64,000 nt of DNA from a virus. The translations under genes were made by a program, and so were the position numbers. Of the stretch, positions 46-62,463 are shown one piece after another (position 1 is the stretch's first letter; each line of letters starts with the position of its first letter). The stretch is taken from positions 5,216 to 69,215 of IMG/VR virus record IMGVR_UViG_3300033145_001255. One strand, written 5' to 3'. Under the pieces are notes generated by a model. It saw nothing but the letters and a program-made list of their open reading frames with translations, searched no databases and was not told where the DNA came from.

Positions 46-241
46 TTCTAACGCCTGCGGCGGTATAGCCCTAACACGTCGCCCAAAGCTTAATCTTCCT
101 TTCGGTCTGCGGACACGAAACGAAGTTAAGCTTACATAAATTCCATTGGCTCGGTCTGGTTCAGTGGAATTTAATGTGCGCCATATTCGGAGCTTGGATT
201 CAAGCGTCTCGAAGAAGGCGCGGATTCGGAGGTTGATGAAC
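46..241 (+). ncRNA. Structured RNA leader, copy A (three-way junction candidate)
   Basis: Homologous to 22980-23176. Stems AAGCTTAA/TTAAGCTT, TTTCG/CGAAA, GTC/GAC and TAAATTCCATTG/CAGTGGAATTTA, closed by CGCCCA/TGTGCG. G-U pairs favour the + strand. Confidence 0.5.
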
Positions 242-367
242 ATGAGTTTGAAAACAGATGTAGTATGTCAGTGTTGCGGTTGTTTAACTAATAATCCTGT
301 GCCTGTTGGCAGGCATAATATTTGCCAGACATGTGCTGATTTAAAATTACCATGGGTGGTCGCATGA
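242..367 (+). CDS. 41-aa Cys-rich zinc-finger-like micro-protein
   Basis: GGAGGTTGATGAAC leader directly before ATG 242. MSLKTDVVCQCCGC...CQTC. Its stop overlaps the next ATG (ATGA). Confidence 0.55.
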   Translation: MSLKTDVVCQCCGCLTNNPVPVGRHNICQTCADLKLPWVVA

Positions 368-480
368 TAGTCAATCGCAAATACATGCGCCAGTTCAAAG
401 ACTATAACTGGAACACCAGGAATGATATCCTCGACATGGTAAGTACGCAGTGCGTGCATAACATATTCAGCAGTAATTGA
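364..480 (+). CDS. 38-aa micro-protein, copy A
   Basis: MIVNRKYMRQFKDYNWNTRNDILDMVSTQCVHNIFSSN. 26/38 identical to 23177-23293, with many synonymous differences. Confidence 0.7.
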   Translation: MIVNRKYMRQFKDYNWNTRNDILDMVSTQCVHNIFSSN

Positions 481-518
481 TTCTGCTTTATTTTTTTTAT
501 ATTTAAATGATAAGCGCC
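437..518 (+). repeat. 82-bp exact direct repeat (copy at 23250-23331) containing a hairpin and T8 terminator-like tract
   Basis: Base-by-base comparison of TGGTAAGTACG...GATAAGCGCC. Confidence 0.9.
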
Positions 519-590
519 AATAGACCTTGGCTCGATTGGTGAGGGCGCAATCATACGCGCCCTGTCAACCAGTGCCATTGGCTCGGGCGC
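514..590 (+). repeat. Two copies of the ~35-bp GCGCC...TTGGnnn-GGGCGC element (514-548, 557-590)
   Basis: Same architecture at 23327, 45929, 56305 and 61811. Confidence 0.7.
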
Positions 591-708: not shown

Positions 709-725
709 GAACTTATAAATACTAC
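709..725 (+). promoter_or_regulatory. Archaeal TATA promoter (TTATAAATAC) for a leaderless portal mRNA
   Basis: About 30 nt upstream of ATG 746. The same TATAAATAC box precedes 23405 and occurs at ~31745. Confidence 0.65.
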
Positions 726-1994: not shown

Positions 1995-4919
1995 ATGACG
2001 ACCAAGACAAGAGGAATATACATTGAACCAGCACATGCAAAGCTTATACACAATAATAGCAAGAACCTTATCATCAAGGATAAATTCTTCAAGATAAACC
2101 AGGATGATATGGTATTGATTACAACCGAGAACGGGCAGGACAAGGCATTAGGCATGATAAGACTGCAACGGCCTGCATCTATCAACATTAAAGAGTTCAA
2201 GCAATACCGGAAATATCACAAAATTTCAGACGAGACCAGGCGCAGCCAGTGGCCGCACGCGCAGAAGCTATTCGCGTATAAGGTCAAGCAATACTGCGGG
2301 TTCCAGTCACCGAAAGACATAGACGTTATAGTGCATAACGATATTGTAAGTGATGTAAATCTATCTGCTAAGCGCAACATCAATATAAAGGTATCAGATT
2401 ACACGCCCGCCAATATCCCGGACGACAGGCTTAAGTCCGATTTCAGGCAGCTATGCGCTATCAGTACCCGCCGCCAGACAAGGTTTTCAAATGATGATAT
2501 CATACTGCTCGGCAGGAAGATAATGCCGGAGCTGATGAGGCGCGGCATAAAGTTCAATAAGACCGGCATGCAGCCTGCAACCTTAAAGTTAATCAACAAG
2601 ATTACCAACGATAAAGAGTTCAACATGAAATTCAACTTCAATGCCGACAAGCCGAAATCAGACGGCGAGAATTATTCAACTGCATTAAAGTACGACCTGT
2701 CAGACATCAAAGACATGGACGGGTTCAGGCAGATAGAACACGCGGAAACAACTGAGGGGCAAGACCAGCACACATACGACCTGTACTTCGCAGGTAACGA
2801 GTACTGGCTTGCAGATGATAGTATAATCAAATGGCGCAGTCTGAAAGACAGACCGCACGAGGCAGTCGAGGAATGGCACAGGATTACCGGGCTGAGGTTG
2901 AAGCTTGAAGATTGCGCGCAATACGACGCAGGCTATATCGTACACGACCCCGACAAGATATACGACAATGCATCAGCATACATCATATCCAACCCTGACG
3001 AGTGCGGGTTCCTCAAAGAAGCAAGTCCCATATCAATACCTGTCTTCGTCCCGGAAGACAAGGCAGACATTGTAAAGGACTGGCATCTCGAAGACCTGCG
3101 CGTCCTGAAGAAAGGCACAGCTCAGGAATACGAGGGCTATTCAATCAAGTGGACTGGCGACGAGGTAGAGATTATAGATATCAAGCCGGCAGCGAAGATT
3201 GAATCTGAGTTCTCCAAGTGCCGGATATTCACCAGGAGCACAATCGAGCTGGACTTCATCAAGCCCACCAAGCCATATCTCGATATGGACGCGCATGTAT
3301 CCAACGAGTTCTTCGTACTGGAAGACATGAAAGACTTTGACTACACGAACAAGACTCTTGAAAAGAAATACGACGGGCAGCGCCTGCAAATCCATAAGCG
3401 CGGTAACTCGGTCAAGTGCTATACTGCCTACGGCAACCAGATATCACTCAACAAGCTTGGTAATATCCCGAACGAAATCCGGGCAATAAACTCACATGCA
3501 TTCATACTGGACGGCGAGCTGATACTGCCGAACTTAGACCGTGATTACGTGCATGACGCGGTTACAACCGAAGGCTCGGACGAGTTGGAATACCGAGTAT
3601 TCGATATCCTGCAGGTAAATGATTCACGTTTGATAGATAAACCTCTATGCCAGCGCAGGCAAATCTTAGAGCGACTTCCACCTTCGTCGCATGTAAAGGT
3701 TTCGCCTGCGCTCAAAGTCACCAAGGACAATATCAAGGGCATGCTAAAGGAAATCCACAAGCGCGGCTACGAGGGCGCGGTCATCAAGGATACAAACTCT
3801 CTATACCAGGACAGGAAGGCATGGCATAAGTTTGTATTCATTACCAACTACCTGAAAAAGACAGAGGACATGCAGAACATGACAGAAGACGAGTCAAGGG
3901 ATTATAGGATTACACTTAATAGATTAGACCGCAAGCTGCGCGAGGGCAAGCGCATACCGATGGCAGTAACAGAACTATACGAGCAAAATACTATCATCCA
4001 GAATAATTCTGCCAAGCCGATAAGCGCGCCTAAGTTTACACTCACACGCAGGTTCTGCTGGTGGTATCACCCCAAGAAGAAGAAGCGCACCCGTAACAGT
4101 AAGGACTATCACCTTAAGATGGAATGCCCGTCTGCCTATAAGTTCCATCTCGATAAGAACCCGCAGACTGATACCGAGATAAGCGCTACTGCATTCACAG
4201 AAGGCGGTAAGTATTTCAGGCCCGGCGAATATCAGCCGGGAACAGACCTCAACCAAGACAATCAGGAATCAGTACATATCGAGAAGATATGCGAGGGCGG
4301 GTTCGACATGATCCAAGAAGAGCAGGACATGATGGAGATTAAGTTCAAGGGCAGGAAGTTCAATGGCACGTTCATCTTCAAGCGCAACGGCGAGACATGG
4401 ACCATGACGAAAGTCACCAAGAGCAAACAGCTAAGTAAATTACAGTTCGGGTTCAAGGATTTCAGGAACACCACAAGCCCCGTACTGGCGAATGATATCA
4501 AGTTCCCGTATAGACGCAGGACAATCGCATTCGCGCCCGGGTTCTGGCATCATACAGTATATACATGGGACATCATCAAGGAAGCGGCAATGAAGATGAA
4601 AGGAATACCAATGGTGATGGAACATTCAGACGAGATACTGGACGATTTGGGTACTGTTACTGACGTGTTCATCAACGAGCAAGACCAGCGCATCGAGGTC
4701 GAGTTCGAGTTGATAGACACTGTCAACGGCAAGGACGCGGCTATACTATTGGAGAACGGCAAGATACCTGCTGTCTCGGTCGCATTAGAGGAATGGAGTG
4801 ACGAGATAGACGGCAAGAACACATGCACGCAGATAGTCGGGTTCGGGCATGTAGCGCTGGTGAAATATCCCGAATGCGCGCCGGCACTGATATGCGACAA
4901 GGACGGGACTTGCGGTTAG
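1995..4919 (+). CDS. Multidomain protein: ASCH-like + ATP-dependent ligase adenylation domain + LigD-phosphoesterase-like + C-terminal prohead protease
   Basis: Ligase motifs EKKYDGQR, ILDGELI, YRVFDIL, EGAVIK, WHK. C-terminal APGFW..IPMVMEH..LGTV..PAVSV..HVALVKYP is typical of capsid maturation proteases. Lies between portal and scaffold/MCP. Confidence 0.8.
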   Translation: MTTKTRGIYIEPAHAKLIHNNSKNLIIKDKFFKINQDDMVLITTENGQDKALGMIRLQRPASINIKEFKQYRKYHKISDETRRSQWPHAQKLFAYKVKQYCGFQSPKDIDVIVHNDIVSDVNLSAKRNINIKVSDYTPANIPDDRLKSDFRQLCAISTRRQTRFSNDDIILLGRKIMPELMRRGIKFNKTGMQPATLKLINKITNDKEFNMKFNFNADKPKSDGENYSTALKYDLSDIKDMDGFRQIEHAETTEGQDQHTYDLYFAGNEYWLADDSIIKWRSLKDRPHEAVEEWHRITGLRLKLEDCAQYDAGYIVHDPDKIYDNASAYIISNPDECGFLKEASPISIPVFVPEDKADIVKDWHLEDLRVLKKGTAQEYEGYSIKWTGDEVEIIDIKPAAKIESEFSKCRIFTRSTIELDFIKPTKPYLDMDAHVSNEFFVLEDMKDFDYTNKTLEKKYDGQRLQIHKRGNSVKCYTAYGNQISLNKLGNIPNEIRAINSHAFILDGELILPNLDRDYVHDAVTTEGSDELEYRVFDILQVNDSRLIDKPLCQRRQILERLPPSSHVKVSPALKVTKDNIKGMLKEIHKRGYEGAVIKDTNSLYQDRKAWHKFVFITNYLKKTEDMQNMTEDESRDYRITLNRLDRKLREGKRIPMAVTELYEQNTIIQNNSAKPISAPKFTLTRRFCWWYHPKKKKRTRNSKDYHLKMECPSAYKFHLDKNPQTDTEISATAFTEGGKYFRPGEYQPGTDLNQDNQESVHIEKICEGGFDMIQEEQDMMEIKFKGRKFNGTFIFKRNGETWTMTKVTKSKQLSKLQFGFKDFRNTTSPVLANDIKFPYRRRTIAFAPGFWHHTVYTWDIIKEAAMKMKGIPMVMEHSDEILDDLGTVTDVFINEQDQRIEVEFELIDTVNGKDAAILLENGKIPAVSVALEEWSDEIDGKNTCTQIVGFGHVALVKYPECAPALICDKDGTCG

Positions 4920-4926
4920 AATAAAA

Positions 4927-6591
4927 ATGGGAGTGGTTGAAATGGCTATCAACAGGATTCTTGGCGGGGGATTGTTCGCGTTATTAGTAATTGCACTTAT
5001 TGCGCATGCAGTAGATTATCCTATGACGCCGAAGGCTAACATCGACATGCAAGACCATGAGATTCAGAATGTATCTACTATGTACGTTGACGTCCTGAAT
5101 GTCTCGAACTCTACCAACATGCCTATCAATTGGACGATGTTGCAGAACTTCCCGCCATGCTCGTCTACTGGCTATGCCATTACATGTCTTGGTGATTCGC
5201 TCACGTCTACTTATTTCGGGCTTGACGGCGCGACATTCATGGAGGACTTCAATGCGATGGGCTATTCACTTTTCAACTTGACCAACGTAACCGCTGATAT
5301 CCTGACTGACGGGACAATGCAATGCACGGGCGGGGATTGTATAGACATAGACGACTTGAACGCGACAGAATCATATCTGACAAGATTAGTCACATCATTC
5401 ATACAGCTATCAGGAATGTTTGAGACAGATGTTGATGTAGGTGGTAATAATATCGACAATGCAACAAACATTACCGTAACAGGCAACTTCAAAGTAAACG
5501 AATACATATTGAACTCGTCACACATACCAGACCATAACGGGCATAGTATATCTAAGACCTTCGAGCATATCATCAACCGCGGTAAGGCATCAGCTGTGAC
5601 AGTCGCGCTAACAGGCGGGCTCGGTATCAACTGGACAGCAGGCGAGATATACGACACATCAACAGATACATTCATAAAGACTACAGCAGGCAGCGGTAAT
5701 CTAAACGATAACGTAGTGAATTATCTTAAGTGGGTTAGCGGGACAGGACTTACAATTACTACTTCATCTTCTTCAAGCAATGAGATACAGATTGCCACAT
5801 TCTCAACTTATGCAGGGGTAATAAATACATTCAGGGAACATAGCCTCATAAGTGAATCTATTGCAGATACAAGACGCGGGTTAAGAATAGCATTTCCTAT
5901 TCGTATCATAAGCGGGATGGCAGTTACAGAAGATGCAAATGTTACTTACGACCTTGACGTTTCAATGAGCGCAGGCGAAGCAATCAAAGACGGTATAGAG
6001 AGGAAGACCCCGTCGGCGATTGATTCGAGGACAACCCCATTAATAAGGCATTTCCATACCGGCGGCGTGTGGGACTATGATACTAATGTAGAAATCAGCA
6101 CTACTCACTACGACGACGGGAATAATCTCGTAGCAATACCTGGCAATAAATGGGCTAAGGCATATTTCATATTCATGAACGGGAAGTTAGGATTTATATT
6201 CCCGAATGAGTATTTCAATAACGAAGCGCAAGCGCAGGACGCGGCATTGCCTGCAATCCCTCCCGGGCTAAGTTTAATCCCGAAACTGACTGCAATAGTA
6301 TATAAATCTAGTGTAAGCGATTTCAACGAAGTTACATGGCAGGATATCAGACCGGGCATAAGCGAGGAATCATTCAATATAGTTACAGACCACGGCGCAT
6401 TAGCAGGACTCGGTGACGACGACCATCCACAATATCTATTAGTTGACGGTACGCGCAACATGACAGGAACCCTAGTGATGTCAGATGCAGGCGCGCAGGT
6501 AAACACAACAATGATTTCTTCCGGCGGTAATGTCGGATGCTGCGGCATGAACGACGATTACTCGTTATCGTGTACTGCTGGCGCGTGCTAA
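4927..6591 (+). CDS. Signal-peptide-bearing fibre/adhesin-like protein, paralog of 26284-28596
   Basis: Hydrophobic N-terminus ending AHA, DHGALAGLGDDDHPQY fibre-type motif, many NxS/T sequons, N- and C-termini shared with 26284. Confidence 0.55.
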   Translation: MGVVEMAINRILGGGLFALLVIALIAHAVDYPMTPKANIDMQDHEIQNVSTMYVDVLNVSNSTNMPINWTMLQNFPPCSSTGYAITCLGDSLTSTYFGLDGATFMEDFNAMGYSLFNLTNVTADILTDGTMQCTGGDCIDIDDLNATESYLTRLVTSFIQLSGMFETDVDVGGNNIDNATNITVTGNFKVNEYILNSSHIPDHNGHSISKTFEHIINRGKASAVTVALTGGLGINWTAGEIYDTSTDTFIKTTAGSGNLNDNVVNYLKWVSGTGLTITTSSSSSNEIQIATFSTYAGVINTFREHSLISESIADTRRGLRIAFPIRIISGMAVTEDANVTYDLDVSMSAGEAIKDGIERKTPSAIDSRTTPLIRHFHTGGVWDYDTNVEISTTHYDDGNNLVAIPGNKWAKAYFIFMNGKLGFIFPNEYFNNEAQAQDAALPAIPPGLSLIPKLTAIVYKSSVSDFNEVTWQDIRPGISEESFNIVTDHGALAGLGDDDHPQYLLVDGTRNMTGTLVMSDAGAQVNTTMISSGGNVGCCGMNDDYSLSCTAGAC

Positions 6592-11709: not shown

Positions 11710-12825
11710 TTGATTGGTTGGAGAAGAGATGATATGACAAACAAACTAAACTTCTGCTATTGCGCGTATAACGTCTTCTCGGACATATTTGATGCAGACC
11801 CAAATATGAGCGGTTGCTATCAGTGGATACGAGCATTCAACGGCAAGGCAATGAACCTGCGCGATTTCTATAAGGACAAGAAAGGACTGCCAAAAGCATG
11901 CCGGTCAGACCAGAGATTACTGCGCAAGGAAATCAAGGCTCGAATAGAGGAGTTCGACGTCGTCATGGTAAATTCTGATCCTGCGGATTGCAGGCTCATG
12001 CAGGAACTCAGAGAAATACTCGGGCATAACTCGTCAACGCAATTAGTCCTGAACCAAGACCATGCACCTGAACTATGGGCTGGCGCCTACGAGTTCCCGC
12101 AGGATTTCAAGGAACCGATATTCGCGGCTGATAAAGTATTCGCAACCAGCCCGACAGCGCAGAAGTGCATGCAGGCATTGGTCGGGTTCGATTCAAAGAC
12201 CAAAATCCATCTATGCCCGCACCCATGCGAGACTCACGTCATCAAGCATATGCGCTCGGTGTTCGAGTCAGACCACTTACTGGTGTTCTGGCATCGTTAC
12301 GGCGGGGGTGAGAACTTCCTGCCCTATATAGTTGCCAGTCAGTGTTATGATAATGTTACCCTGTGCGGGCATATGGAAGGAGACGACAAGCACCTGCGTA
12401 GGACGCGTTGTACTTTCAAGCAGGTGATACCTGCATTGAACTATCCTTCATTTGTTAAACTGCTCGTCGAGGCTAAGTTCGCGTTCGAGCCGTTCCAGAG
12501 CTATAGCTTCGGGCGCAATACCTGTGACTCGGCAGCAGTTGGCTTGCCGGTGGTCGGCAACAGGAACATATATTCCATGCAGATAAACTATCCCATGACC
12601 TGCGTTGACCCGTATGACGCGACAAAGATATACGCGCTGTTCGACAGGTTGAAGAAAGACCCTGCGTTCTACTCGGACGTTTCGCAAGTTGCGAGCTTCA
12701 ATAGCAATTACTTCGGGCATGATATGTGCAGACAGAGGTTCATGGCAATGCTGGAATCTGACAAGCCGAGCATGGTCGAGAACGTGGAGAAGCACGCTAT
12801 GAGAGGGGAGGCTGATGCGTTATGA
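11710..12825 (+). CDS. Glycosyltransferase (GT-B-like), paralog of 31825-32766
   Basis: C-terminal EPFQSYSFGRNTCDSAAVGLPVVG is a GT-B nucleotide-binding motif. VLNQDH and PHPCETH are shared with the paralog. Confidence 0.7.
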   Translation: MIGWRRDDMTNKLNFCYCAYNVFSDIFDADPNMSGCYQWIRAFNGKAMNLRDFYKDKKGLPKACRSDQRLLRKEIKARIEEFDVVMVNSDPADCRLMQELREILGHNSSTQLVLNQDHAPELWAGAYEFPQDFKEPIFAADKVFATSPTAQKCMQALVGFDSKTKIHLCPHPCETHVIKHMRSVFESDHLLVFWHRYGGGENFLPYIVASQCYDNVTLCGHMEGDDKHLRRTRCTFKQVIPALNYPSFVKLLVEAKFAFEPFQSYSFGRNTCDSAAVGLPVVGNRNIYSMQINYPMTCVDPYDATKIYALFDRLKKDPAFYSDVSQVASFNSNYFGHDMCRQRFMAMLESDKPSMVENVEKHAMRGEADAL

Positions 12826-13488
12826 ATTCTAAAACTAAACTTACGATTGTAAATGATAAAGATGATGACCGCCGTCTAATAAGAATTGATATCGAACTAA
12901 AAGAAGATTTGAAAAAAGGATATCATCGGTTTGATATTGCTGATTGCATCAGTTTACGCGACGTTGAGTGCGGCCTGACTTATCTTGATTTAGTTCCAGA
13001 AGTAAAGAAGAAGAAACCTGCATGCGCTAAGGAGGCTGATGCGTTATGAATGAACTAAAGATATATTGCGTACTAATTCAACTTGGACTGACATATGTGA
13101 TAATTGGCATTTCCAAATGCATTTCTTCGCAGGGTGCATTTGTCCTAACAATCGCGACGATTGGAGTCATAGGAGGACTTATTGATATGGTAATTGATCG
13201 TTATTCAAATTGCAATATTTCACTTCTTACATGTTTATTTTGGCCGCTGACTCTAATATGGATTTTTTCAAGAATATCAGAAGATGAGGAGGCTGATTCG
13301 TTATGATATCTGAAATAATAACACTCGTATTATCTCTGCTGTTGGGCTTTGCCCTGCTCGGGATTGTAGTTGCCGTATGCGGGACAGTGTTTGTAATTAC
13401 GTTGATTTATTCGCTTAACATAATAGAGAATATTCTTGATTGGGTGAATGAGAAACTCGAAAAGAAGAAGGATAATGATGCGTTATGA
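12807..13488 (+). repeat. Four GGAGGCTGATGCGTTATGA-type gene-junction repeats joining ORFs 12822-13049, 13046-13306 and 13303-13488
   Basis: Copies at 12807, 13031, 13288 and ~13470. ORFs end EADAL/EADAL/EADSL/DNDAL. Confidence 0.8.
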
Positions 13489-13698
13489 TAGACCACATTA
13501 CCAACGCCAAGAACATAAACGAGCTGCCGAGTTTCGACGCTGACGATTATCCAAAGATATCGCGCTCTGACCTGCGCTCGTTTGGAATCTCGAAAGTCAA
13601 GCAGTTGCGCGCAAAGTATGATTCAGATGTGTTTGACTCTGTGGCAGAAGTAGTAGGCGCTGATAAGATGCTAAAGATAATATTCAATTTAAGCGAGG

Positions 13699-22979: not shown

Positions 22980-23176
22980 TTCTAATGCGCAAGCGCAATC
23001 TAGCCCTAGATCCGTCTGGCAAAGCTTAATCCCCCTTTCGGTCTGCGGACACGAAACGCGGTTAAGCTTACATAAAATCATTTGGTTCAGTCTGGTGAAG
23101 ATGATTTTAATGCCAGCCATATTCGGAGATTAACTGAGCCGCAAGCGGCTTTAGTAAAACGAATTGGTGATGAGAC
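22980..23176 (+). ncRNA. Structured RNA leader, copy B
   Basis: CTGGCA/TGCCAG closing stem, AAGCTTAA/TTAAGCTT and TAAAATCATTT/AGATGATTTTA. Covaries with copy A. Confidence 0.5.
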
Positions 23177-23293
23177 ATGAGTGTGAACAGGGAGTACATG
23201 GAGAAGTTTAAGGATTACAGTTGGGCTAGTTCCAACATGATACACGCATTGGTAAGTACGCAGTGCGTGCATAACATATTCAGCAGTAATTGA
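23177..23293 (+). CDS. 38-aa micro-protein, copy B
   Basis: MSVNREYMEKFKDYSWASSNMIHALVSTQCVHNIFSSN, preceded by a TTGGTGA SD-like sequence. Confidence 0.7.
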   Translation: MSVNREYMEKFKDYSWASSNMIHALVSTQCVHNIFSSN

Positions 23294-23404
23294 TTCTGCT
23301 TTATTTTTTTTATATTTAAATGATAAGCGCCTTAAGACCTTGGCTCGATTGGTGAGGGCGCAGAAGCAAAACTATAAATACAACCTCGACATAAAGTAGA
23401 GTCT

Positions 23405-23848
23405 ATGAGCGTAGCAGCAGACCAGCTTCTAAGATGGGCACTGAACTTCCATCACCCTGACTTCAAAGAGATATGGATTAAACATAAAGAAGCATCACTA
23501 GCAACTGGCGTGCAATCATTTGATATTGATATATCCAAACTAGGCACGACAAGAATAGTCAAGGAAGTAAGAATCTCTGTCGGGGCAGACGGCTCGGAAC
23601 AGGGCGCTGGTTCATACGCGCAGTTCCATAATAAAGCAACAGCACCATCAGGCGACGACTTGACACCTGGCACGTCAACTACACTGATGGGCGAGGCATA
23701 TTTCATCAACGATACTTCTGATACATGTCTCAAGATGAAATTCAAGCGCATTAAAGAAACGATACTAGACAAGCAATATATCTATATGAACCATGCCAAA
23801 GGCTCGTCAGCAGATGTATATGTATCACTTCTGATAATGTATAAATAA
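23405..23848 (+). CDS. Putative virion protein
   Basis: TATAAATAC promoter upstream. First gene of the second structural block. Confidence 0.45.
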   Translation: MSVAADQLLRWALNFHHPDFKEIWIKHKEASLATGVQSFDIDISKLGTTRIVKEVRISVGADGSEQGAGSYAQFHNKATAPSGDDLTPGTSTTLMGEAYFINDTSDTCLKMKFKRIKETILDKQYIYMNHAKGSSADVYVSLLIMYK

Positions 23849-26283: not shown

Positions 26284-28596
26284 ATGGCATTCAAAAAAAT
26301 ATTTATTCATTTCACGGTTGCGCTGGTGATGTTCGCCGCGCTCGCTCTGGCAGTAAATTACCCTATGACGCCGAAGGCCGACATCGACCTTCAAGGTCAT
26401 CAGCTTCTCAATGCCGGTAATGTGACTGGCAATATCTCGTGGAAGAGTATCGACGACTGGCCGCCTAACTGCTCGGCTGGCTATTACGTGTCGGGGCTGG
26501 ATGACTCGGTGACATGCACTGACTCTGGCATGGTTGGAAGTACGTGGACAGATTCGCAGAACGCATCAGATAAGAATCTTACTGGTGTTAATGTGCTTGA
26601 AGCGGATGAATTTAATATGGTTCTATACGTTCCAGAAGGAGGTACCGATATGGACATACGAGCCAAGATAGAGGAATGTAATGTTTCGGGAGTTCAATCG
26701 TGTAAAATAATAATCCCTAAAGGTACGTTTAATGTTACTGATCAGATAGTGCCTTTGGAGAATATGACTATTGAAGGGGCAGGTATGGGAATAACTATAC
26801 TAAAAGCAATAAATACGATTGATGAAGCAGTAATTATTCCAAAAACATGGGGTGGGACAAATAGGGAAAGGATAACACTAAGAGATTTCACAATAGATAT
26901 GGATAATTATCAATATCATGGTATTCTGTTGCGTTATGCGAAATACAGTACTGTAGAGAACATCGAAATTAAGAACTCTAATGGGAGCGCATTGTATGTC
27001 AGTTCAGGTACGTGGTATTCTTATTTCAATAATATTCATATACTTGATAATGCTGATGGTTTTGGATTATATCTTGACACATCACACTACAATCGTTACA
27101 ACAACATTCATATAAAAGGCGGTGCAGTTGATGGTTTAGTTGTTAGACAAGCTCGCAATAATGTGTTTACTAATTTTATAATCTCAAATACTGGAAAAGG
27201 TCAAAGTGCAGGTTATGGTTATGGTCATGGTGTACGTGTTATAGACAATGCACGGGAAAATACTTTTGTGAACTTTAAGATATATGATACGTTTGCTAAT
27301 GGTTTCAGACTAAATGGAGGGTATGGGAATGTCGTTATTGGTGCAAATATAATGGATACGGGTAGTACGGGTATCCGATTAAAAGAAGCAGCATATTCAA
27401 CAATATCTTCGTGTTATGTTAGAAATTCAACTCATGCAATTCATGTTTCTGGTGATTATAATACTGTTGTCGGAAATACATTTAAAAGTATGAGAGATAC
27501 ACCGATATATCTAAGTCCAGATTCACCTTATGATTCAGAAAATAATATCATTTCGAGTAACGTTATTTGGAATAATGTTTCTACAGAACCTTTATATTAT
27601 GGTATTCATTTAGCTTCTGGTTGTGATGATAATACAATTATTGGAAATAAAATATCTGGATATAACACTTCAATGATTTATGATTTAGGAGACGATACAT
27701 TTATTGTTAATGAAGGAACTCTTAAAGCAACAAGTGCCGAAATTTCATCTATTGATACTGATGATATAATATCTTCAATTATATACGATAAAACTACTCA
27801 GGGTGTTCAACTTGCAATGAACTTCAATAATGGTAGTGTATATGGCTCTTCGATACTGGATTCATCTTCAGAAAATCATCACGGAATAGTTCATAATGCT
27901 ATTCATAATTCTACAGGGGGATTCAATGGAGGGGGTGTATTTGATTTTGATGGAATTGACGATTATATTGAGATAACCAATGCTGCCGGATTCAACACGA
28001 GTATTACCGGAGAATTAACATTATCTGCGTGGGTGTACCCTCGTGGTTTTGGAGATGCTTTTGGAGGTATGATATCAAAAGGGAGCGGTGTACCTATATG
28101 TTATGCTTTTGCGCATGTGGATACTACGGCAGAATTATATTTCTCATATCGTGATGGTGGTGGATGGCATGATGTTAATAGCGGATTGTATATGCAACAA
28201 GATAAGTGGAATTACATTGCAGTATCTTTTAATGGGACAAATGTAACATTTATAGTCAATGATACTTTTGTTGTTAAACCTTATTTACATACTCTTCCTA
28301 CCTCAACGGGAAGTGTATTTATCGGGCATAACAACGTTAATTACTTTGATGGATTGATAGATGAGGTAGAAATATCTGACCAAGCAATTTCAACAGACAT
28401 ATTACTAGCAAAATATAGAACTCAGAAAGAAAACCCAAACTCATTCGTCTCCCAAAAAAACATCAAAGTAAACACAACAGCAATCTACCCGCAGAATGAC
28501 ATAAACTATGGAACTCACAATTTCACAATGACTGCATCAGATGGAACAATCGGAAACTGTGGAATGTTACCAGACAAAACAATACAATGTAGTTAG
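26284..28596 (+). CDS. Signal-peptide-bearing adhesin/depolymerase: pectate-lyase-like beta-helix + LamG domain
   Basis: IEGAGMGITILKA, repeated N..I..N.I rungs, FDFDGIDDYI, TLSAWVYP, WNYIAVSF, FDGLIDEV. Confidence 0.8.
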   Translation: MAFKKIFIHFTVALVMFAALALAVNYPMTPKADIDLQGHQLLNAGNVTGNISWKSIDDWPPNCSAGYYVSGLDDSVTCTDSGMVGSTWTDSQNASDKNLTGVNVLEADEFNMVLYVPEGGTDMDIRAKIEECNVSGVQSCKIIIPKGTFNVTDQIVPLENMTIEGAGMGITILKAINTIDEAVIIPKTWGGTNRERITLRDFTIDMDNYQYHGILLRYAKYSTVENIEIKNSNGSALYVSSGTWYSYFNNIHILDNADGFGLYLDTSHYNRYNNIHIKGGAVDGLVVRQARNNVFTNFIISNTGKGQSAGYGYGHGVRVIDNARENTFVNFKIYDTFANGFRLNGGYGNVVIGANIMDTGSTGIRLKEAAYSTISSCYVRNSTHAIHVSGDYNTVVGNTFKSMRDTPIYLSPDSPYDSENNIISSNVIWNNVSTEPLYYGIHLASGCDDNTIIGNKISGYNTSMIYDLGDDTFIVNEGTLKATSAEISSIDTDDIISSIIYDKTTQGVQLAMNFNNGSVYGSSILDSSSENHHGIVHNAIHNSTGGFNGGGVFDFDGIDDYIEITNAAGFNTSITGELTLSAWVYPRGFGDAFGGMISKGSGVPICYAFAHVDTTAELYFSYRDGGGWHDVNSGLYMQQDKWNYIAVSFNGTNVTFIVNDTFVVKPYLHTLPTSTGSVFIGHNNVNYFDGLIDEVEISDQAISTDILLAKYRTQKENPNSFVSQKNIKVNTTAIYPQNDINYGTHNFTMTASDGTIGNCGMLPDKTIQCS

Positions 28597-45619: not shown

Positions 45620-46050
45620 CTTCTGGTAATACGGAGAGTGTTTCACGCAAACCCAAACTGCACCCCGAGGGGCCAGCCCCCGTTTGGGTTGCGACGGACA
45701 GTTCAATTACTTATTATCATGCGCGCTCTTGTTACGCAAATCGACTTAGGCACAATGGGTCGGGCGTAACTGACCTGTGCATGGGCGAGTCAGGCACGCC
45801 CCTATGCGAGCTTCGTGCCTAAGTAACGATTTCTGTTTCTCGACTGCGTTTCCTTGCACTATTCCATTGGTTCCTGCGTCTCCTACGTCAAGAACCAGTC
45901 ATGCGAGCGCATCAATCTTTATCCATTACGCCCTAGTGACTTGATGATATTGGCTCGGGCGAGAGATAGCGCCTGCGGCGAGTATGACAACGGACTCATC
46001 CTGCGCGCCGGCAGTGATTATCTAGCCCATCTTCTATGAAGTTTATTTCA
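45620..46050 (-). ncRNA. Candidate ~430-nt structured non-coding RNA
   Basis: Nested long helices with G-U pairs on the - strand. No credible ORF. TATA-like TTCATAAATA upstream at ~46097-46106. Confidence 0.5.
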
Positions 46051-46240
46051 ATTCATTTATGCGCACCTCTGGATATGCAATTGTTTTCAAGCGGTCTATT
46101 TATGAAGTTGGTTCAGACTGCACCCTAACTATATTCTAATTTCGGCTAGCTATGCGTGGGCTCGGGCTAGCTCGAAATCAGATATAGCCAGGGCGCACCC
46201 AATGGCGCATGAAAAAAATTGCACTTGGAGGTGCTTGAAT

Positions 46241-46615: not shown

Positions 46616-46767
46616 GCGTCACTGCCTAAATTTCTTTTTTTTATCTTTGTGAAAAAAAAATAAATTGTTTATGAGGTGAATGAAGATGTATATGATATAT
46701 AACCTAACTCAGTTGGCAGGCGCGTTGATAATAATAATTATCGGCATGGTCATGTGAATGATTATTC

Positions 46768-46801: not shown

Positions 46802-47341
46802 CTGCTGTCGGTATTAAATAAATACGAGGTGTAAACTATGGACAAAGTGAAGGTGTGGTTTAAGACATACAAAAGGATTGAAGTTACAGACGATGATGAG
46901 AATCCAACTTATCGTGAAGAAGGAAAGATGAATGTTGAAACAATGGATTATAATGTCGAATTTCTGCGCGATTGGGTTGGAATGAAATCAGTTCAACATG
47001 GAGAAGACGGTGGTTCTTTCGATGTTGTTTGTATTACTAATATGGACGACAGCATCATTGATGGATGGAAAGGTATGGTTAAATAAGGAGTTGGTGAACT
47101 ATGAAGAAAATAAATATGAAAAAAGATCTGAAAAATATCTTCTATAACAAGAAAGTTATAGAAGCAAAACCACCGAGCATTGCGGGGGAAAAATTCTACT
47201 TTGCCTTTGAAGTAGAACTGTTGGAACTGAATAGTGGGATTATTGGCAATCTTACAAATTTAGCAAAGACTCATGATATGGTATTGTCATGGGCATATAA
47301 TAGAGGTAAGTTGAGATTTGCCTTTATATAATGGTGAACAA

Positions 47342-48139
47342 ATGAAAAACAATAAAGTAGGTGAACTAATCGAGTCTGCGCAGGCTCAGTTACTCGAGAA
47401 GATAAAGGACGGCGCGACAATAGAAAAGGTCAGGTCATTCCTGGACATAAGCGCAAGCTTCTGTAATTACAGTTTCAGGAACCAGATACTGATATGGTCG
47501 CAGAACAGGAAAGCTACGCGCGTTGCAGGATTCCATTCATGGAAGAAATTGGGGCGCAGTATAACAGCAGGATCCAGAAGTATAAAGATAATCGCGCCAT
47601 GCCCGTACACGAAGAAAGACGCGGACGGCATCGAGGAAGAGTATATCAACTTCCGGGCAGTCTCTGTATTCGATGTCGAGCAGACACACGGCAGGGAATT
47701 GCCTGACATCTGCGACGTGCAGGGCAATTCAGAAGCAGATACATTAGATGATACTGTGAAGTATGCTGAACTATCGGGCGCGAAGGTCGAGTTCTGCAAG
47801 ACAGGGCGCGCTGACGGCTGGGTTGACGGCAACAGTGACATATCAATCAGTGACAACATGGCGCCCAACAAGCAGCTGATAACATTGTTCCATGAACTGT
47901 CGCATATCAGGCTCGGTCATATCGGCTCGAAAGAGGATAAGCAGAAGAAAGAAATTGAGGCTGAGGTCTGCGCGTATGTGGTCTCGAAACACTTCGGGAT
48001 TGACGCGAAGTCAGAGGAATATCTCTTGACATACAAAGCCGAAGACGAGCAGATAATGGACGCGTTCTCGCATGCCACTAAGACAGCAGGCGCGATAATT
48101 GCAGGGGTCGAGCAGCAGCGTGTTGCCTGCTCTGCTTAA
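47342..48139 (+). CDS. ardC: ArdC-like antirestriction protein (ssDNA-binding N-domain + HExxH zincin domain)
   Basis: YSFRNQILI..Q..AT.VAGF.SWKKLGR, VFDVEQT.G, TLFHELSH, EIEAE. Confidence 0.8.
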   Translation: MKNNKVGELIESAQAQLLEKIKDGATIEKVRSFLDISASFCNYSFRNQILIWSQNRKATRVAGFHSWKKLGRSITAGSRSIKIIAPCPYTKKDADGIEEEYINFRAVSVFDVEQTHGRELPDICDVQGNSEADTLDDTVKYAELSGAKVEFCKTGRADGWVDGNSDISISDNMAPNKQLITLFHELSHIRLGHIGSKEDKQKKEIEAEVCAYVVSKHFGIDAKSEEYLLTYKAEDEQIMDAFSHATKTAGAIIAGVEQQRVACSA

Positions 48140-48260
48140 TGCAATTTATTTTTTTTTAGACTGGGTAGAAAAAAAATAAATTTGAGGTGAATGTTATGGA
48201 TGAAAATATGAACGGCCTTGATGAGTATGCGCACATCGTATATAAACAGGAGAGGATGTT

Positions 48261-48599: not shown

Positions 48600-49292
48600 G
48601 TTCGGAAGTCTATGTTATGTTGCTGATTGCATTGATGGGTGGGATGTTGTTCTACCTTATTATGATTGCACTTATTGAATACCAAAATGAAAAAGAAAAG
48701 AAGCGTGCAATAGAGATATCAGACGATGAGTTTGATAAGTCAATGAACTGCGGCGGCTTACCTGTAGGTTTGCCATGTAATGACAAGACATGCGCGCATT
48801 ACAATCTATGCAAAGCAATAACAGGTTAATGCAATTTATTTTTTTTTAGACTGGGTAGAAAAAAAAACAAATTTGGAGTTGGTGAACATGAAAGTAACAG
48901 TAGAAATGAACGACGGTGCGCATGTGCGTACAGGCGCTATGAAACCTTTTGATGCAGTGCATGCATTATTGAGAGGCGCGACAATCAGGATGGGTGGCTG
49001 TGTATGAAGCCGAACAACGAGCGCATCCGTGAGTTGCAGGCTTTGATGTCGGCTAACTCGCGCAGGAACAACGAGATATTCCAGAAGACAGACCATCTCG
49101 ACCAGCATATCCTGTTTGATAATATCAGGATTAAGGACGAGATTGGCAGGCTGTCGTCTGCGAAGAATATGGACGTGTCGGCATTGGCTTGATATTGGCA
49201 TCTCCAAACGCGGGCGTGCAAGCGCCCGCATTATTATCTTATTTCGCGCTGCTGACTCTATGAAGTTGGCGCGGCGCGGGGAGTTGAAAACT

Positions 49293-49694: not shown

Positions 49695-50241
49695 GCAAAT
49701 TTATTTTTTTACTATGGGTAGAAAAAAATAAATCTGGTATGGCCGGATAAAGGAGTTGGTGAACAATGAAAGAAGAAAACGATTTGAGAAAAGTGTGCAA
49801 CGGGCTAGGCGTGCGCCACCTGAACACAGACAGGATAGAGTATCAGCGCACACATCTGCTGGAAAGCCCTATGGCATTCCTGGCAAGAGAGACAGGGGTT
49901 GATTTTATATGACCTCTGAGACTGGCTATGATTTGGCGCGGGGTCTGCTCGCGCTTGTTAATCCGAGTATGGATGAGGAAGATTGATATGTTCAACAGAA
50001 TAGTTAGAGGACTGTCGCAGGGCGAGCTTGACAAGCTCACGGACAGTCAGCTAGAAACATATAACCACAGGCTTGATTGTTTAAGGCATGGGAGTATGAG
50101 CGCATGAAAGCAGAACACTACATACTAAGCAAGACCATCCGCATCACGGGAATCGCAGATGCGGATGTTCATAACATCAAGAGCGCGCTTGCCATGTGCG
50201 GCGTGCCAGTTAAGACTGCAAAATTCGGAGGTTGTTGAACT

Positions 50242-50664: not shown

Positions 50665-51420
50665 ACTATGAACCAGCGAGTACAGAACGAGATGCGCGAC
50701 ATGACTCAAAAGGAGTTGCGCGAAGTTGAAGAGGAAGCCAGACGGTTATTGTTTCTTTCAAAAAGTATGAAACTTGGAGGTTGTTGAATATGTATAAACG
50801 AGAAGTGATAGAGAAAGAGATAGATGATACATTGATTATGGGTACTGACCCTGCTGAACGTACAGCGCAAGCGTTATCCGCATTGGCAATGCTTGAGTAC
50901 AACAAGCAATATGGACAGAAGGTGATGGATTGATGGAAGACAATACATTCGCAGCTGCATGCTATAACGAGAACTCGACAGACGAGTTGATAGATGCATT
51001 GCTTCAAAACAGCGCAGATGAATACGACTGCAAGCAATGGAGTATTTCTCCTACGAAATGGAGGAAAGATATTGCAGAAGCATTGCGCGAGAAAATAAAA
51101 GACATGGAGGAGAAGTAGTATGACAGAAAAAACATTTGAGCAAGTCCTAGAAGAAGAATGCGAGGACGATGCTTACGAGCACGCAATGGACGACAAGGCA
51201 GAGGAGAAGCGCAAGCTCGCGCAAGAGGTAGAGCATGAGGATGATTGATATGCAGATGCAACTAGGCGATCTCGTAAAGCCCAAGCGCAATGAGCCGGAA
51301 CCAGAAGACGAGGAGAACGAGGGCGCGGTTGCATGGCAGCCTGATAAGAAGTATTGAATTTATTTTTTTATAATGGGTAGAAAAAAATAAATCCTTATCG
51401 AAGGATGGAGTTGGTGAACA

Positions 51421-51876: not shown

Positions 51877-52952
51877 GGTGATACTAACGAAAACATTAAA
51901 ACAAATTCAGAATGACACAGCAGAAGAACATAACTGTATGCCTACACAATTCACTCCGTTTATAGATGCATTGCGTAAGGAAGCTATTGACGAATTGGAA
52001 TCGCTACGAAAATATTATCCTGCATATATGATTGACCCGTCAATAGATATAGATTGCCTGCCTGATACAAAAAATGTAACTATAATGAAATTGCTGATTC
52101 GAATATTTGATATCAAACCAGATGAACTGATAAACATGGGCGGTTAAGATGTTAGGCAAAGACTGGAAGGCATGGGCGCGCAAGTTGCCCGTGCAGGCAT
52201 TGAAATCATACTGTGACGCGCTCGCAAGTCTGCACCCGCTAATCAAGGAACAGTTCGAGGGGTTGGAGACTGTGCATGGTATCTTGCAGTTGGAGATGCG
52301 CAGAAGGTTCAAGAAACAGGAGGATGAAGATTATGAATAATGAAAGTGTTGATAAGATAAAAGAGATTCGATGTTTGATAGATAAAGCGCAGGATATCTA
52401 CAATGCGTTACCTGATGAAGATCAAAACGAAATCTTCAAAGAACATCATGAGAATTATAGTATGGGCTATTGTTTGAGATGGGGTTTAACTGCGGCTGAT
52501 GATATAATACGTTTATGTCAAGAGGCAAAGCAATGAACCCGACAATGCTAGCCTATGTCAGCAAGCACGGGCATTACGACAAGTTCGTAGCGCTCGCGGT
52601 CCTCTGGCACCAAGCACATCCACATGTTGACATGCACGATATCTCAGAGGGCATGGCGCATAGGTTCAACGAGTTCCTGTGCGGTCAGCCGCAGACTCTG
52701 CACATACCAGACAATAAAGACTTATGCGCAATGTTTCTTTTGGTAGAACATGTGCGCATCTACAGCGGGCTGAGTATGGCTCGGTTGAGCGCGTATTAAA
52801 AAAATATATGGAGTTGGTGAACGTGAATTTGAAAGACAGAGAAACATTTGCATGTGATTTAATCGCTGCTATTGATTGTGGTGAAGTTGAAAACTCAGAG
52901 GAAGCTAAACAGTTTGCTCGGGACTATTGAATAATAAATGGAGTTGGTGAAC

Positions 52953-61801: not shown

Positions 61802-62463
61802 TCCTACCTGGCGCCCAACTGACTCGGTGGAGTTGGTTCAGGGCGCAATCATCCTTAAAAAAACTAACAGGAGTTGATCTTATGGCAGACAGGACAAAGG
61901 ACTTTTCAATCGAGCAGGACATCAGGAAGAAAGAGTATATCAAGAAACACGGGCATGCAATACTCGAAGATATTGTAGGCGACGTGATAGTAAAGGATCC
62001 ATCCAAGATGAAGGTCGAGTTCAAGGACGGAACCAAAAAAACTATCCAGGAACTGTGCGCGCTAAACGAGCAAGTCACCAAGCTGCGCAAGTCAGGCATC
62101 AAGGACATGCTATTGGGATTGTTGGGTGTCAAGCAATAACTTATGTAAAGGTATTTAGAATGGAAATAGAAAAAGATATTGACCCTGAACTATGGATGAA
62201 CAAACCTCATTCGGCCACATTACTTAGAGAGAAAATCGCATATAAAATCGCCGATATGAAAGAGTTATACATAAAAAGCAGATTACGATATCCATTCTAC
62301 ATAATGCCATTCGCAAGGATTGCCGCTAAGTTTATTTTCGTTGTTGAAAAAAGACCAACACATTTTATTGGAGTTGGTATTGAAAAGAAAATTAGTATCG
62401 ACATTAATGTTATCGGCAATCCGCGCTACCCAAAATGGGTAAGTAAAATATTCATACGAGAGG

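What the first reader, a model, noticed from the sequence alone, without database searches (positions are those of the whole stretch)
46..548. Duplicated unit: covarying three-way-junction RNA leader + conserved 38-aa micro-peptide + terminator, ahead of two structural operons
Seen: 46-548 and 22980-23361 are homologous. The leaders keep the same helices despite sequence change: closing stem CGCCCA/TGTGCG vs CTGGCA/TGCCAG; TAAATTCCATTG/CAGTGGAATTTA vs TAAAATCATTT/AGATGATTTTA; invariant AAGCTTAA..TTTCGGTCTGCGGACACGAAAC..TTAAGCTT arm; conserved loop TGGYTCRGTCTGGT. Downstream are 38-aa ORFs missed by the ORF track (364-480, 23177-23293), 26/38 identical, with nine synonymous changes in the first 25 codons (e.g. 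gtc/gtg, cgc/agg, aaa/aag). Copy A has an extra 41-aa Zn-finger ORF between leader and peptide. Inference: a riboswitch/attenuator-like or type-I toxin-antitoxin-like RNA-peptide module. I do not recognise the family.
Basis: partly seen in the sequence, partly recalled or inferred. Interest (0 to 1): 0.85.

Follow-up and report, generated by a model that had tools for sequence, protein, structure and literature searches.

The report
Duplicated leader-hairpin small-gene cassette
A tailed virus carries two diverged copies of a small cassette (a folded leader, a 38-residue protein gene and a T-run), and the leader's main hairpin also sits in front of transposase and homing-endonuclease genes in other uncultured microbes, so it looks like a new, uncatalogued leader motif of selfish genes.

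Summary
Window 46-549 and 22980-23362 are two copies of one module in a 69-kb terminally repeated tailed-virus genome. The 5' parts fold into the same three-way junction: 39 pairs, 6 changed on both sides, none broken. The 38-codon ORFs show a coding pattern, with 8, 9 and 18 differences at codon positions 1, 2 and 3, and 9 synonymous changes. No Rfam family matches.

New here: the junction's long arm is not private to this virus. Its 19-nt apical hairpin, set in a covarying rod, lies about 96 nt upstream of an IS200-like Y1 transposase gene in 18 of 22 metagenome loci. It also lies at the 5' end of an ORF-bearing insertion in the 23S rRNA gene of an Aenigmatarchaeota MAG. A weaker relative precedes a LAGLIDADG gene in another rRNA insertion.

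Best reading (confidence 0.45): a sense-strand leader RNA hairpin, read by a host factor, that controls or processes the mRNA of small or selfish ORFs. The virus has two paralogous small-protein cassettes that carry it.

A type-I toxin reading is not supported, because the peptides are hydrophilic. A riboswitch is unlikely. Function is inferred; no transcript data exist.

The parts
46..549 (+). Module copy A (about 504 nt): leader, 41-aa Zn-ribbon ORF, 38-aa ORF, T-run, GC hairpin
   Evidence: Alignment with copy B; repeat families D2 and D3; own-genome search.
52..62 (+). Small 5' hairpin (CGCC-TGC-GGCG). Copy B has GCGC-AA-GCGC at the same place (22987-22996).
   Evidence: Read. Present in the fold of copy B.
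80..180 (+). Three-way junction, copy A: closing stem 80-85/175-180, arm 1 at 86-133, arm 2 at 138-173
   Evidence: Fold z-score -4.2. Two-copy consensus: 39 pairs, 6 compensated, 0 broken.
86..133 (+). Arm 1, the shared 'leader rod'. Apical hairpin at 100-120: lower stem, 3-bp upper stem, UGCG loop, bulged A at 115.
   Evidence: Model R1 scores 61.3 bits at 71-149 on the + strand and only 12.4 bits on the - strand. The same 19-mer occurs in 19 IS-type loci and in L034.
138..173 (+). Arm 2: 12-bp hairpin whose loop carries TTGGCTCGGTCTGG
   Evidence: Three of its pairs changed on both sides between the copies.
181..192 (+). Conserved 12-mer CCATATTCGGAG directly after the junction (copy B: 23117-23128)
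   Evidence: In the fold of copy B it pairs with the ribosome-binding region of the peptide ORF (prediction only).
242..367 (+). 41-aa CxxC...CxxC ORF, present in copy A only. It is preceded by GGAGGTTGATGAAC, which resembles this genome's usual ribosome-binding motif.
   Evidence: Translation. Motif families D10, D12, D13 and D17. Only a weak Pfam hit, E 0.069.
364..480 (+). 38-aa ORF, copy A (hydrophilic, pI 9.1)
468..498 (+). Weak hairpin that spans the stop codon, then a T8 run: the likely end of the transcript
   Evidence: Read. Not flagged by the scan.
514..548 (+). GC hairpin with loop motif TTGGCTCGATTGG. Further copies lie at 23327-23361 and 56305-56339; looser relatives lie at 556-592, about 45925-45961 and about 61811-61845.
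   Evidence: Repeat family D6; motif list; sequences.
714..722 (+). TATAAATAC box, 23 nt before the portal gene's ATG (746)
   Evidence: Exact + strand matches at 714, 23373 and 31744 only. Each lies 23 nt before an ATG.
22980..23362 (+). Module copy B (about 383 nt): leader, 38-aa ORF, T-run, GC hairpin. It has no Zn-ribbon ORF.
23016..23116 (+). Three-way junction, copy B (arm 1 at 23022-23069, arm 2 at 23074-23109)
   Evidence: R1 scores 62.8 bits at 23007-23085.
23177..23293 (+). 38-aa ORF, copy B
23373..23381 (+). TATAAATAC box, 23 nt before the ATG at 23405
46112..46206 (+). Possible third, much diverged leader hairpin. It has the same lower stem and a 3'-side bulge, a different apex, a loop with TGGGCTCGG, and lies 25 nt before the ORF at 46202.
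   Evidence: R1 gives only 12.7 bits, E 1.1. Sequence. Suggestive, not shown.

Best explanation
Each copy is a small gene cassette of a tailed virus, probably one that infects archaea.

Its sense-strand transcript starts with a roughly 100-nt three-way-junction leader. The long arm of that leader belongs to an uncatalogued family of rod-like leader hairpins: covarying outer helices and a sequence-fixed apex of a UGCG-type tetraloop and a 3-bp stem over a bulged A. This family precedes ORFs of selfish elements, namely an IS200-like transposase and ORFs in rRNA insertions.

My reading is that the apex is the docking site of a trans-acting factor, most likely supplied by the host. Binding would set the stability, the processing or the translation of the mRNA that follows. 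In the virus that mRNA encodes a hydrophilic 38-aa protein (in copy A also a 41-aa zinc-ribbon protein) and ends at a T8 run.

The GC hairpin and the TATAAATAC box that follow belong to the next transcription unit.

Shown: the duplication, the structure with covariation, the coding pattern of the ORF, the recurrence of the arm in other elements, and its strand specificity.

Inferred: that it acts as RNA, that a factor binds it, what the effect on expression is, and the archaeal host.
For: 1. Structure within the window. There are 39 pairs, 6 compensated, and none broken between two copies that differ in 21 of 109 columns.

2. Recurrence of the arm. The exact 19-mer gave 22 metagenome loci. In 18 of the 22, a Y1 transposase homologue (65-100% identical to the L008 protein) starts about 96 nt downstream on the same strand. 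L026 shows the same left end but is cut, and 3 of the 22 are chance hits. Pfam Y1_Tnp, E 3e-34, was tested on L008 only.

3. Covariation of the rod. On 15 distinct sequences, 92.3% of cells are paired against 76.7% in shuffles. Twelve of 20 pairs changed on both sides. None of 500 shuffles reaches the covariation score, and slid partners collapse to 27-54%.

4. The arm in an archaeal rRNA gene. In L034, an Aenigmatarchaeota MAG, the same apex lies about 50 nt inside a roughly 1.07-kb insertion in the 23S rRNA gene, 35 nt upstream of a 328-aa ORF.

5. Spread in that phylum. R1 over 101 genomes of the phylum hit 3 of 101. One hit, L064 (29 bits), lies 20 nt upstream of a LAGLIDADG_3 ORF (E 2e-19) inside an LSU rRNA insertion.

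6. No shared protein. No protein is shared between the window and the IS loci or the L034 ORF, and the virus has no Y1_Tnp. Any reader of the hairpin is therefore not encoded by the elements in common.

7. Strand. R1 scores 61-63 bits on the ORF strand and 12 bits on the other strand. In every context the arm is on the strand of the ORF that follows. Arm 2 holds G-U pairs.

8. The peptide is coding. Codon-position differences are 8, 9 and 18, with 9 synonymous changes. Both ATGs are preceded by a GGTG-type motif like the genome's usual ribosome-binding site.

9. Host hint. Three TATAAATAC boxes each lie 23 nt before an ATG with no Shine-Dalgarno motif between. This fits archaeal TATA-to-leaderless-start spacing, which is textbook knowledge recalled here. 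Portal homologues occur in 4 of 371 genomes of the same phylum, best E 7e-46.
Against: - There is no transcript evidence at all, so RNA versus single-stranded DNA is unresolved.
- The apex is invariant partly by construction, because the loci were found with an exact 19-mer. The two loci found by the model alone (L064, L065; 27-29 bits) have other apical loops.
- One contig of run X1 carries a T inserted after 105 together with C114A and A115C, which would pair the bulged A. The bulge may therefore not be essential.
- Only 3 of 101 sampled genomes of the phylum carry the arm.
- The host of the IS loci is unknown. The best transposase homologue in 301 genomes of the phylum is 44% identical, and no arm lies beside those homologues.
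- The coding signal of the peptide rests on a single pair of paralogues. No homologue was found anywhere.
- The 97% identity of the 3' 113 nt suggests gene conversion, so that part gives no independent comparison.
- No binding factor has been identified.
Confidence: 0.45

Rival explanations
1. Relic or non-autonomous derivative of a single-strand (IS200/IS605-type) transposon. On this view the hairpin works as single-stranded DNA for a Y1 HUH transposase, and the two modules are old transposed copies mobilised in trans.
For: - The arm is identical in its 19-nt apex to a hairpin inside the left end of an IS200-like element. That element has many insertion contexts: the flanks differ to the left of a shared boundary.
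- Tandem copies, and a right-end hairpin of the same kind as the first left-end hairpin, are seen in L007.
- The two window modules have sharp common boundaries.
- A bulged hairpin is the kind of target such enzymes read (recalled knowledge).
Against: - In the IS the arm is the second, internal hairpin. The subterminal hairpin and its right-end counterpart have a different sequence and are absent from the window modules (read).
- The virus genome has no Y1_Tnp.
- The same arm precedes ORFs in rRNA insertions with no transposase, one of them a LAGLIDADG ORF.
- The window copies are strongly diverged, with saturated synonymous sites, yet they keep the structure and the ORF.
Confidence: 0.12
2. 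Cis-acting control of the downstream structural operon. Either the leader makes RNA polymerase resistant to termination, or translation of the 38-codon ORF decides whether transcription stops at the T-run (leader-peptide attenuation).
For: - There are two copies per genome, each just ahead of a long + strand operon.
- The ORF's last codons and its stop lie within the weak hairpin before the T8 run, so a terminating ribosome would cover it (read).
- Further hairpins and T-runs lie between copy A and the portal gene (646-696).
Against: - Both operons, and a third one at 31744, have their own TATAAATAC box at a fixed 23 nt from an ATG. They therefore need no read-through.
- The arm also occurs where antitermination makes little sense, such as inside rRNA insertions and a transposon end.
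- No alternative antiterminator pairing was found.
- The ORF has no run of regulatory codons.
- If the host is archaeal, hairpin-dependent termination is not expected (recalled knowledge).
Confidence: 0.15
3. RNA-cutting element. The rod is a self-cleaving RNA, or the mark for a host endonuclease, that frees the following ORF from a longer precursor (pre-rRNA, read-through into a transposon, or a viral polycistron).
For: All three contexts are ORFs embedded in transcripts made for another purpose. In copy B no promoter-like box precedes the module, which follows directly on the stop of the gene upstream. In L034 and L064 the ORF's ATG lies 17-25 nt after the rod without a Shine-Dalgarno motif.
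Against: There is no match to any ribozyme family of Rfam. No cleavage data exist. The conserved apex is a plain, stable tetraloop hairpin with no evident catalytic core.
Confidence: 0.1
4. Type-I toxin-antitoxin-like module, or a metabolite riboswitch.
For: A small ORF lies behind a highly structured leader. A three-way junction is a common aptamer shape.
Against: - The peptides are hydrophilic, with no membrane segment.
- The antisense frames are not conserved.
- There is no Rfam riboswitch match.
- Outside this genome the junction is not kept; only one arm is.
Confidence: 0.05

Closest known systems
Left-end and 5'-UTR stem-loops of IS200 (post-transcriptional control of tnpA). Recalled from the literature; a passage of PMC12558985 only states that TnpA is post-transcriptionally regulated.
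   Same: Hairpins lie between the transposon's left end and tnpA. In the metagenome IS loci the arm sits between a first hairpin and a hairpin predicted to sequester the Shine-Dalgarno motif.
   Different: The arm is an extra element with its own fixed apex. It also occurs outside transposons, in rRNA insertions and in this virus. No sequence relation to any Rfam entry was found.
Archaeal rRNA insertions or introns that carry LAGLIDADG homing-endonuclease ORFs
   Same: L034 and L064 show the arm at the 5' end of ORF-bearing insertions in LSU rRNA genes.
   Different: The window modules lie between protein genes, carry no endonuclease domain, and no splice-type junction was identified. No group I intron model matched those loci.
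Free-standing selfish-gene cassettes in intergenic slots of tailed phages (recalled)
   Same: The module is a discrete insert with sharp borders just upstream of the portal gene. A distant relative's portal gene (L082) is preceded by a weakly HNH-like ORF in the same slot.
   Different: The ORFs here are 38 and 41 aa with no nuclease signature, and the 38-aa frame looks selected.
Phage RNA antiterminators that occur twice per genome (put-type; recalled)
   Same: Two diverged copies of a multi-stem RNA with compensatory changes, each ahead of an operon.
   Different: The operons have their own promoter-like boxes. The arm recurs in non-viral elements. No test was possible.
Type-I toxin-antitoxin loci
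   Same: A peptide of under 60 aa behind a folded leader.
   Different: The peptide is hydrophilic, and no antisense partner is evident.

Membership tests
Any Rfam 15 family | Covariance-model match at or near the gathering score | tested here: not met
   Whole window at gathering threshold: only a tRNA. Positions 1-760 at E up to 10: three chance-level hits of 9-16 bits. IS loci and L034, L064, L065: only rRNA or chance hits.
Leader-rod family defined here (model R1) | Two covarying outer helices around the fixed apical hairpin, on the strand of a downstream ORF | tested here: met
   61.3 and 62.8 bits for the two window copies, though both were among the sequences the model was built from. 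The ORF lies downstream on the same strand in both copies.
IS200/IS605 element or its non-autonomous derivative | Y1 (HUH) transposase available in the genome | tested here: not met
   PF01797 found nothing in the 69-kb genome at E up to 1; the controls responded.
IS200/IS605 element or its non-autonomous derivative | Subterminal hairpins of the same kind at both ends | tested here: not met
   The IS loci have a first hairpin with a CTAAAG centre, and a like hairpin at the right end in L007. Neither is present in the window modules. A fuzzy search found no second copy of the arm's apex in either module.
Type-I toxin-antitoxin | Small hydrophobic, membrane-active peptide | tested here: not met
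   GRAVY -0.70 and -0.36. AlphaFold gives two helices at low confidence, pLDDT 65.8.
Type-I toxin-antitoxin | Overlapping or nearby antisense RNA | not testable with these tools
   No RNA data. No sigma-70-like site on the antisense strand inside either ORF, which says little for an archaeal host.
Riboswitch | An aptamer whose junction and loops are conserved across taxa, joined to an expression platform | tested here: inconclusive
   Only arm 1 recurs outside this genome. Leaders in the IS loci and L034 fold as rods, not three-way junctions. There are too few relatives of the whole junction to judge.
Leader-peptide attenuator | A short ORF whose translation changes the formation of a terminator just downstream | tested here: inconclusive
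   The stop codon lies inside the weak hairpin before T8, but no alternative pairing or regulatory codons were found.
Group I intron or small self-cleaving ribozymes | Match to the conserved catalytic core | tested here: not met
   No such Rfam hit in the window modules or in L034, L064 or L065.

The most novel reading that the evidence does not exclude
The rod is a new kind of expression handle used by unrelated selfish elements of DPANN-type archaea and their viruses. It would be an RNA mark, self-cleaving or read by a host nuclease or RNA-binding protein, that lets an ORF buried in pre-rRNA, in a transposon end or in a viral polycistron be cut out or recruited as a translatable message. The virus would have captured it twice to drive two paralogous micro-proteins placed at the entry of its structural operons.
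Probability: 0.15. Interest if true: 0.85.

Novelty: new variant of a known kind. Interest (0 to 1): 0.6.

Why it matters
A 19-nt hairpin kept letter for letter in three unrelated kinds of mobile element points to a common reader in the host cell. The three are a Y1 transposon, ORF-bearing rRNA insertions of an Aenigmatarchaeota genome, and a tailed virus.

How selfish ORFs inside rRNA insertions and transposon ends of ultra-small archaea get expressed is not known. This motif gives a concrete handle to test that: a covariance model, defined contexts and a clear binding target.

It also links an orphan 69-kb virus to a candidate host phylum. The virus's portal has only three homologues among 5.8 billion clustered proteins.

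The module is real and structured, but it is neither a toxin-antitoxin pair nor a recognisable riboswitch.

Tried and rejected
Searches for relatives of the virus or the module that found nothing useful:
- GenBank phages, by DNA and by portal protein.
- Portal-based locus searches in viral, genome and metagenome contigs, with a single sequence and with a 4-sequence alignment. None was confirmed.
- Peptide-based locus search in viral contigs.
- Word search with the 42-aa form of the ORF: none.
- Profile search of 1.84 billion representatives: 2 hits, both long repeat proteins, taken as spurious.

DNA patterns in viral contigs:
- The 22-mer gave 0 loci.
- The 19-mer with a free loop base gave 1 chance hit.
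- A looser pattern gave 26 loci. None has the full arm by R1. L062 looks coding.

Genome-contig pattern: 7 loci, of which 6 are chance hits inside coding-looking DNA.

Shared proteins:
- IS-locus ORFs against the two modules: noise only.
- Window ORFs against the IS loci: none.
- The L034 ORF against the window and the IS loci: none.

Other negative results with model R1 or other tools:
- R1 beside distant transposase homologues: none.
- R1 beside portal homologues in the phylum: none.
- Promoter and terminator consensus scans flagged nothing relevant in either module.
- AlphaFold of the peptide was low confidence.

Sequencing runs: one DNA run (X1) with a small share of words, and no RNA holder listed. 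Laying X1 showed only short contigs 80-99% alike, which may come from either paralogue of relatives.

Literature:
- 'IS200, DPANN, transposase' (listing only).
- '23S rRNA, intron, DPANN, homing endonuclease' (listing only).
- The 14-nt apex string as DNA and as RNA: 0 papers.
- PMC12558985 was read as passages only and does not concern this motif.
- Supplements were not seen.

Considered and dropped:
- Hammerhead, HDV-like, K-turn and bulge-helix-bulge readings of the arm. These were judged by eye only, with no supporting Rfam hit.
- tRNA-like readings of the GC hairpins, judged by eye.
- The peptide as a remnant of the transposase N-terminus (no similarity).

Full report
WHAT THE WINDOW IS. 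The window is bases 5216-69215 of a 69,215-bp virus record with direct terminal repeats. It encodes a portal protein at 746-1990 and a 974-aa protein with an ATP-dependent ligase domain. It also encodes a tail-tube protein, two tyrosine recombinases, YopX- and ArdC-like proteins and one tRNA-Thr. It is therefore a tailed virus. It has no relative in GenBank phages. Its portal has only three homologues among 5.8 billion clustered proteins.

CHECK OF THE OBSERVATION. The two regions are homologous over sharply bounded stretches, 46-549 and 22980-23362. Conservation is uneven:
- 82% over the 119-nt leader core.
- About 55% over the first 25 codons of the small ORF.
- 97% over the last 113 nt, which hold the end of the ORF, the T-run and a GC hairpin.
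- Copy A has about 130 extra bases with a 41-aa CxxC...CxxC ORF. Its stop overlaps the start of the 38-aa ORF.

The consensus fold of the two leaders has 39 pairs, 6 changed on both sides and kept, 1 changed on one side, none broken. The copies differ in 21 of 109 columns. Single-sequence folds give z-scores of -4.2 and -2.4.

The small ORFs are 26 of 38 residues identical. Their diverged 25 codons differ at 8, 9 and 18 first, second and third positions, with 9 synonymous changes. The other frames hold stops, and the antisense ORFs are not conserved. Both ATGs are preceded by a GGTG-type motif that resembles the long ribosome-binding motif repeated through this genome. I take the ORF as coding, on the evidence of a single paralogue pair.

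WHAT THE LEADER IS RELATED TO. No Rfam family matches. An exact search for the 19-nt apex of the long arm in metagenome contigs gave 22 loci.
- Three of them (L013, L014, L023) are chance hits.
- In 18 of the 22, a homologue of one Y1 (IS200-like) transposase starts about 96 nt downstream on the same strand. Pfam was tested on L008: Y1_Tnp, E 3e-34.
- L026 has the same left end but is cut.

The sequence to the left of a shared boundary differs from locus to locus. L007 holds two copies in tandem, with a right-end hairpin of the same kind as the first left-end hairpin. Passenger genes differ too: a DNA methylase in L008 and small zinc-ribbon ORFs in L007. This is a transposon with many insertions. 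In it the arm is the second hairpin. It lies between a first, subterminal hairpin and a hairpin predicted to cover the Shine-Dalgarno motif of tnpA.

On 15 distinct sequences (2 from the window, L034 and 12 IS copies) the rod has 20 pairs. Twelve changed on both sides. Of all cells, 92.3% are paired against 76.7% in shuffles. None of 500 shuffles reaches the covariation score, and sliding the partners by one to three columns drops pairing to 27-54%. The seven apical pairs never vary, but that is partly because the loci were found with the exact apex. One IS copy (L007:259) has a different second loop base.

A scan of one genome per species gave seven hits; six look like chance matches in coding DNA. 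The seventh, L034, is from a MAG titled Candidatus Aenigmatarchaeota. There the arm lies about 50 nt inside a roughly 1.07-kb insertion in the 23S rRNA gene:
- The first 45 bases of L034 fit the printed archaeal LSU consensus around model positions 160-205.
- The rRNA resumes near L034:1118.
- The 5' end of the LSU lies upstream, as a 5.8S-type match in L035.
- The insertion carries a 328-aa ORF with no Pfam match.
- L034 also has CTTGGCTCGG just 5' of the arm. That 9-mer recurs in the window in the loop of arm 2 and in the GC hairpins.

A covariance model of the arm (R1) found only that one copy in the MAG. Over 101 genomes of the phylum it hit 3 of 101. The two new hits are weak (29 and 27.6 bits) and have other apical loops. 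They keep the lower stem, the 3'-side bulged A and A/U-rich outer helices.
- L064 lies within an LSU rRNA gene that has about 1.5 kb of extra sequence. The arm there is 20 nt upstream of a LAGLIDADG_3 ORF, E 2e-19.
- L065 lies upstream of a region with weak LAGLIDADG-like and winged-helix ORFs.

WHAT THE CONTEXTS SHARE. In every case the arm is on the strand of an ORF that starts 17 to about 100 nt downstream, and that ORF belongs to a selfish element. The elements share no protein with each other or with the virus, and the virus has no Y1 transposase. R1 scores 61-63 bits on the sense strand and 12 bits on the other strand. Within the virus genome only the two module copies score. A third hairpin at 46112-46206 has the same lower stem and bulge position but reaches only 12.7 bits.

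HOST. Three exact TATAAATAC boxes on the + strand each lie 23 nt before an ATG (746, 23405, 31776), with no Shine-Dalgarno motif between. The third ATG opens only a 23-codon frame. Internal genes use a long GGAG/GGTGA motif. This is the layout expected of archaeal TATA boxes with leaderless first genes. That expectation is textbook knowledge recalled here, not tested. Portal homologues occur in 4 of 371 genomes of the Aenigmatarchaeota-type phylum, best E 7e-46 plus 2e-21 for one 391-aa ORF. I did not run the same search on other phyla, so this is a hint and not an assignment.

MECHANISM. The fixed apex, the covarying stems, the strand specificity, the position before ORFs and the lack of any shared element-encoded protein fit best with a sense-RNA hairpin read by a host factor. 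That factor would set stability, processing or translation of the message behind it. In copy B the conserved 12-mer after the junction is predicted to pair with the ribosome-binding region of the peptide ORF. This would give the leader a way to gate translation, but it is a prediction from one sequence.

The peptide is hydrophilic, with two predicted helices at low confidence. Its role is unknown. Its placement at the entry of two structural operons suggests a late-phase regulator or assembly factor, which is speculation. I put 0.45 on this reading. The rivals, with what speaks for and against each, are listed in their own section. They are a single-strand transposon relic (0.12), operon antitermination or attenuation (0.15), an RNA-cutting element (0.10), and a toxin-antitoxin pair or riboswitch (0.05).

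LIMITS.
- There are no RNA data.
- Relatives of the whole module were not found. Run X1 gave only short contigs 80-99% alike. One of them carries three changes in the apex that would pair the bulged A.
- The family is defined from few lineages, and its apex is partly fixed by the way it was found.
- Insertion boundaries in the rRNA genes were read by eye against Rfam alignments.

NOVELTY. The motif is not in Rfam 15, and its 14-nt core string occurs in none of the searched papers. Structured leaders of transposase genes and ORF-bearing rRNA insertions are known kinds of thing. A single hairpin shared by these and by a virus is, as far as these searches go, undescribed. I rate it a new variant of a known kind, with interest 0.6.

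Noticed in passing
window 514-548, 556-592, 23327-23361, ~45925-45961, 56305-56339, ~61811-61845: A family of GC-stemmed intergenic hairpins whose loops carry TTGGYTCR. One sits between convergent genes next to a 202-aa tyrosine recombinase. The same 9-mer flanks the arm in L034. Function unknown: possibly an RNA 3'-end or protein-binding element.
   Followed up: partly
window 45830-46200: A roughly 370-nt stretch without a convincing ORF. It repeats pieces of the module's 5' end (ATTCTAA, CGCCTGCGGCG, CCCTAAC) and ends in a bulged hairpin 25 nt before the ORF at 46202. It may be a third, decayed leader.
   Followed up: partly
window 714, 23373, 31744: TATAAATAC boxes at a fixed 23 nt from an ATG. 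This suggests leaderless first genes and an archaeal-type promoter. The third ATG opens only a 23-codon ORF that overlaps the start of the 313-aa gene.
   Followed up: partly
window 46630-46666, 48136-48183, 48826-48873, 49698-49734, 51348-51395: Five copies of an A/T-run palindrome (T-run, GGGTAG-type centre, A-run) between small genes of the 46-52 kb region. They may be bidirectional terminators or early promoters.
   Followed up: no
window 47085-47115, 48863-48892, 49750-49780, 52798-52827, 55249-55272 and others: An unusually long, repeated ribosome-binding motif (GGAGTTGGTGAAC, then ATG) in front of many small genes.
   Followed up: no
window 5008-5071 and 26350-26413: An 81%-identical 64-nt stretch shared by the N-terminal parts of the 554-aa protein and the 770-aa beta-helix/lectin protein. 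It is probably a common adaptor module of two fibre or spike proteins.
   Followed up: no
window 12807-13490: Four small ORFs in a row joined by the same 21-nt junction (GGAGGCTGATGCGTTATGAAT type). This suggests a tandem paralogue array.
   Followed up: no
window 1995-4919: A 974-aa protein directly after the portal gene, with an ATP-dependent DNA ligase domain in its middle and a faint capsid-like C-terminus. This is an unusual fusion for that position.
   Followed up: no
L034 46-1120 (and L035): A roughly 1.07-kb insertion in the 23S rRNA gene of an Aenigmatarchaeota MAG, with a 328-aa ORF of no known family. No group I intron model matches.
   Followed up: partly
L007 188-1989; L008 2100-3640: An IS200-like transposon that carries passenger genes between tnpA and its right-end hairpin. 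The right end is translated as the same C-terminal tail (…GIRPTIL) of different passenger proteins. L007 holds tandem copies.
   Followed up: partly
L082 960-1000 and 1034-1447: In a genome of the same phylum, the portal homologue is preceded by a weakly HNH-like ORF. Further upstream lies a short stretch that looks like a tRNA T-arm (ARAGORN finds no tRNA), so this may be a provirus border.
   Followed up: partly
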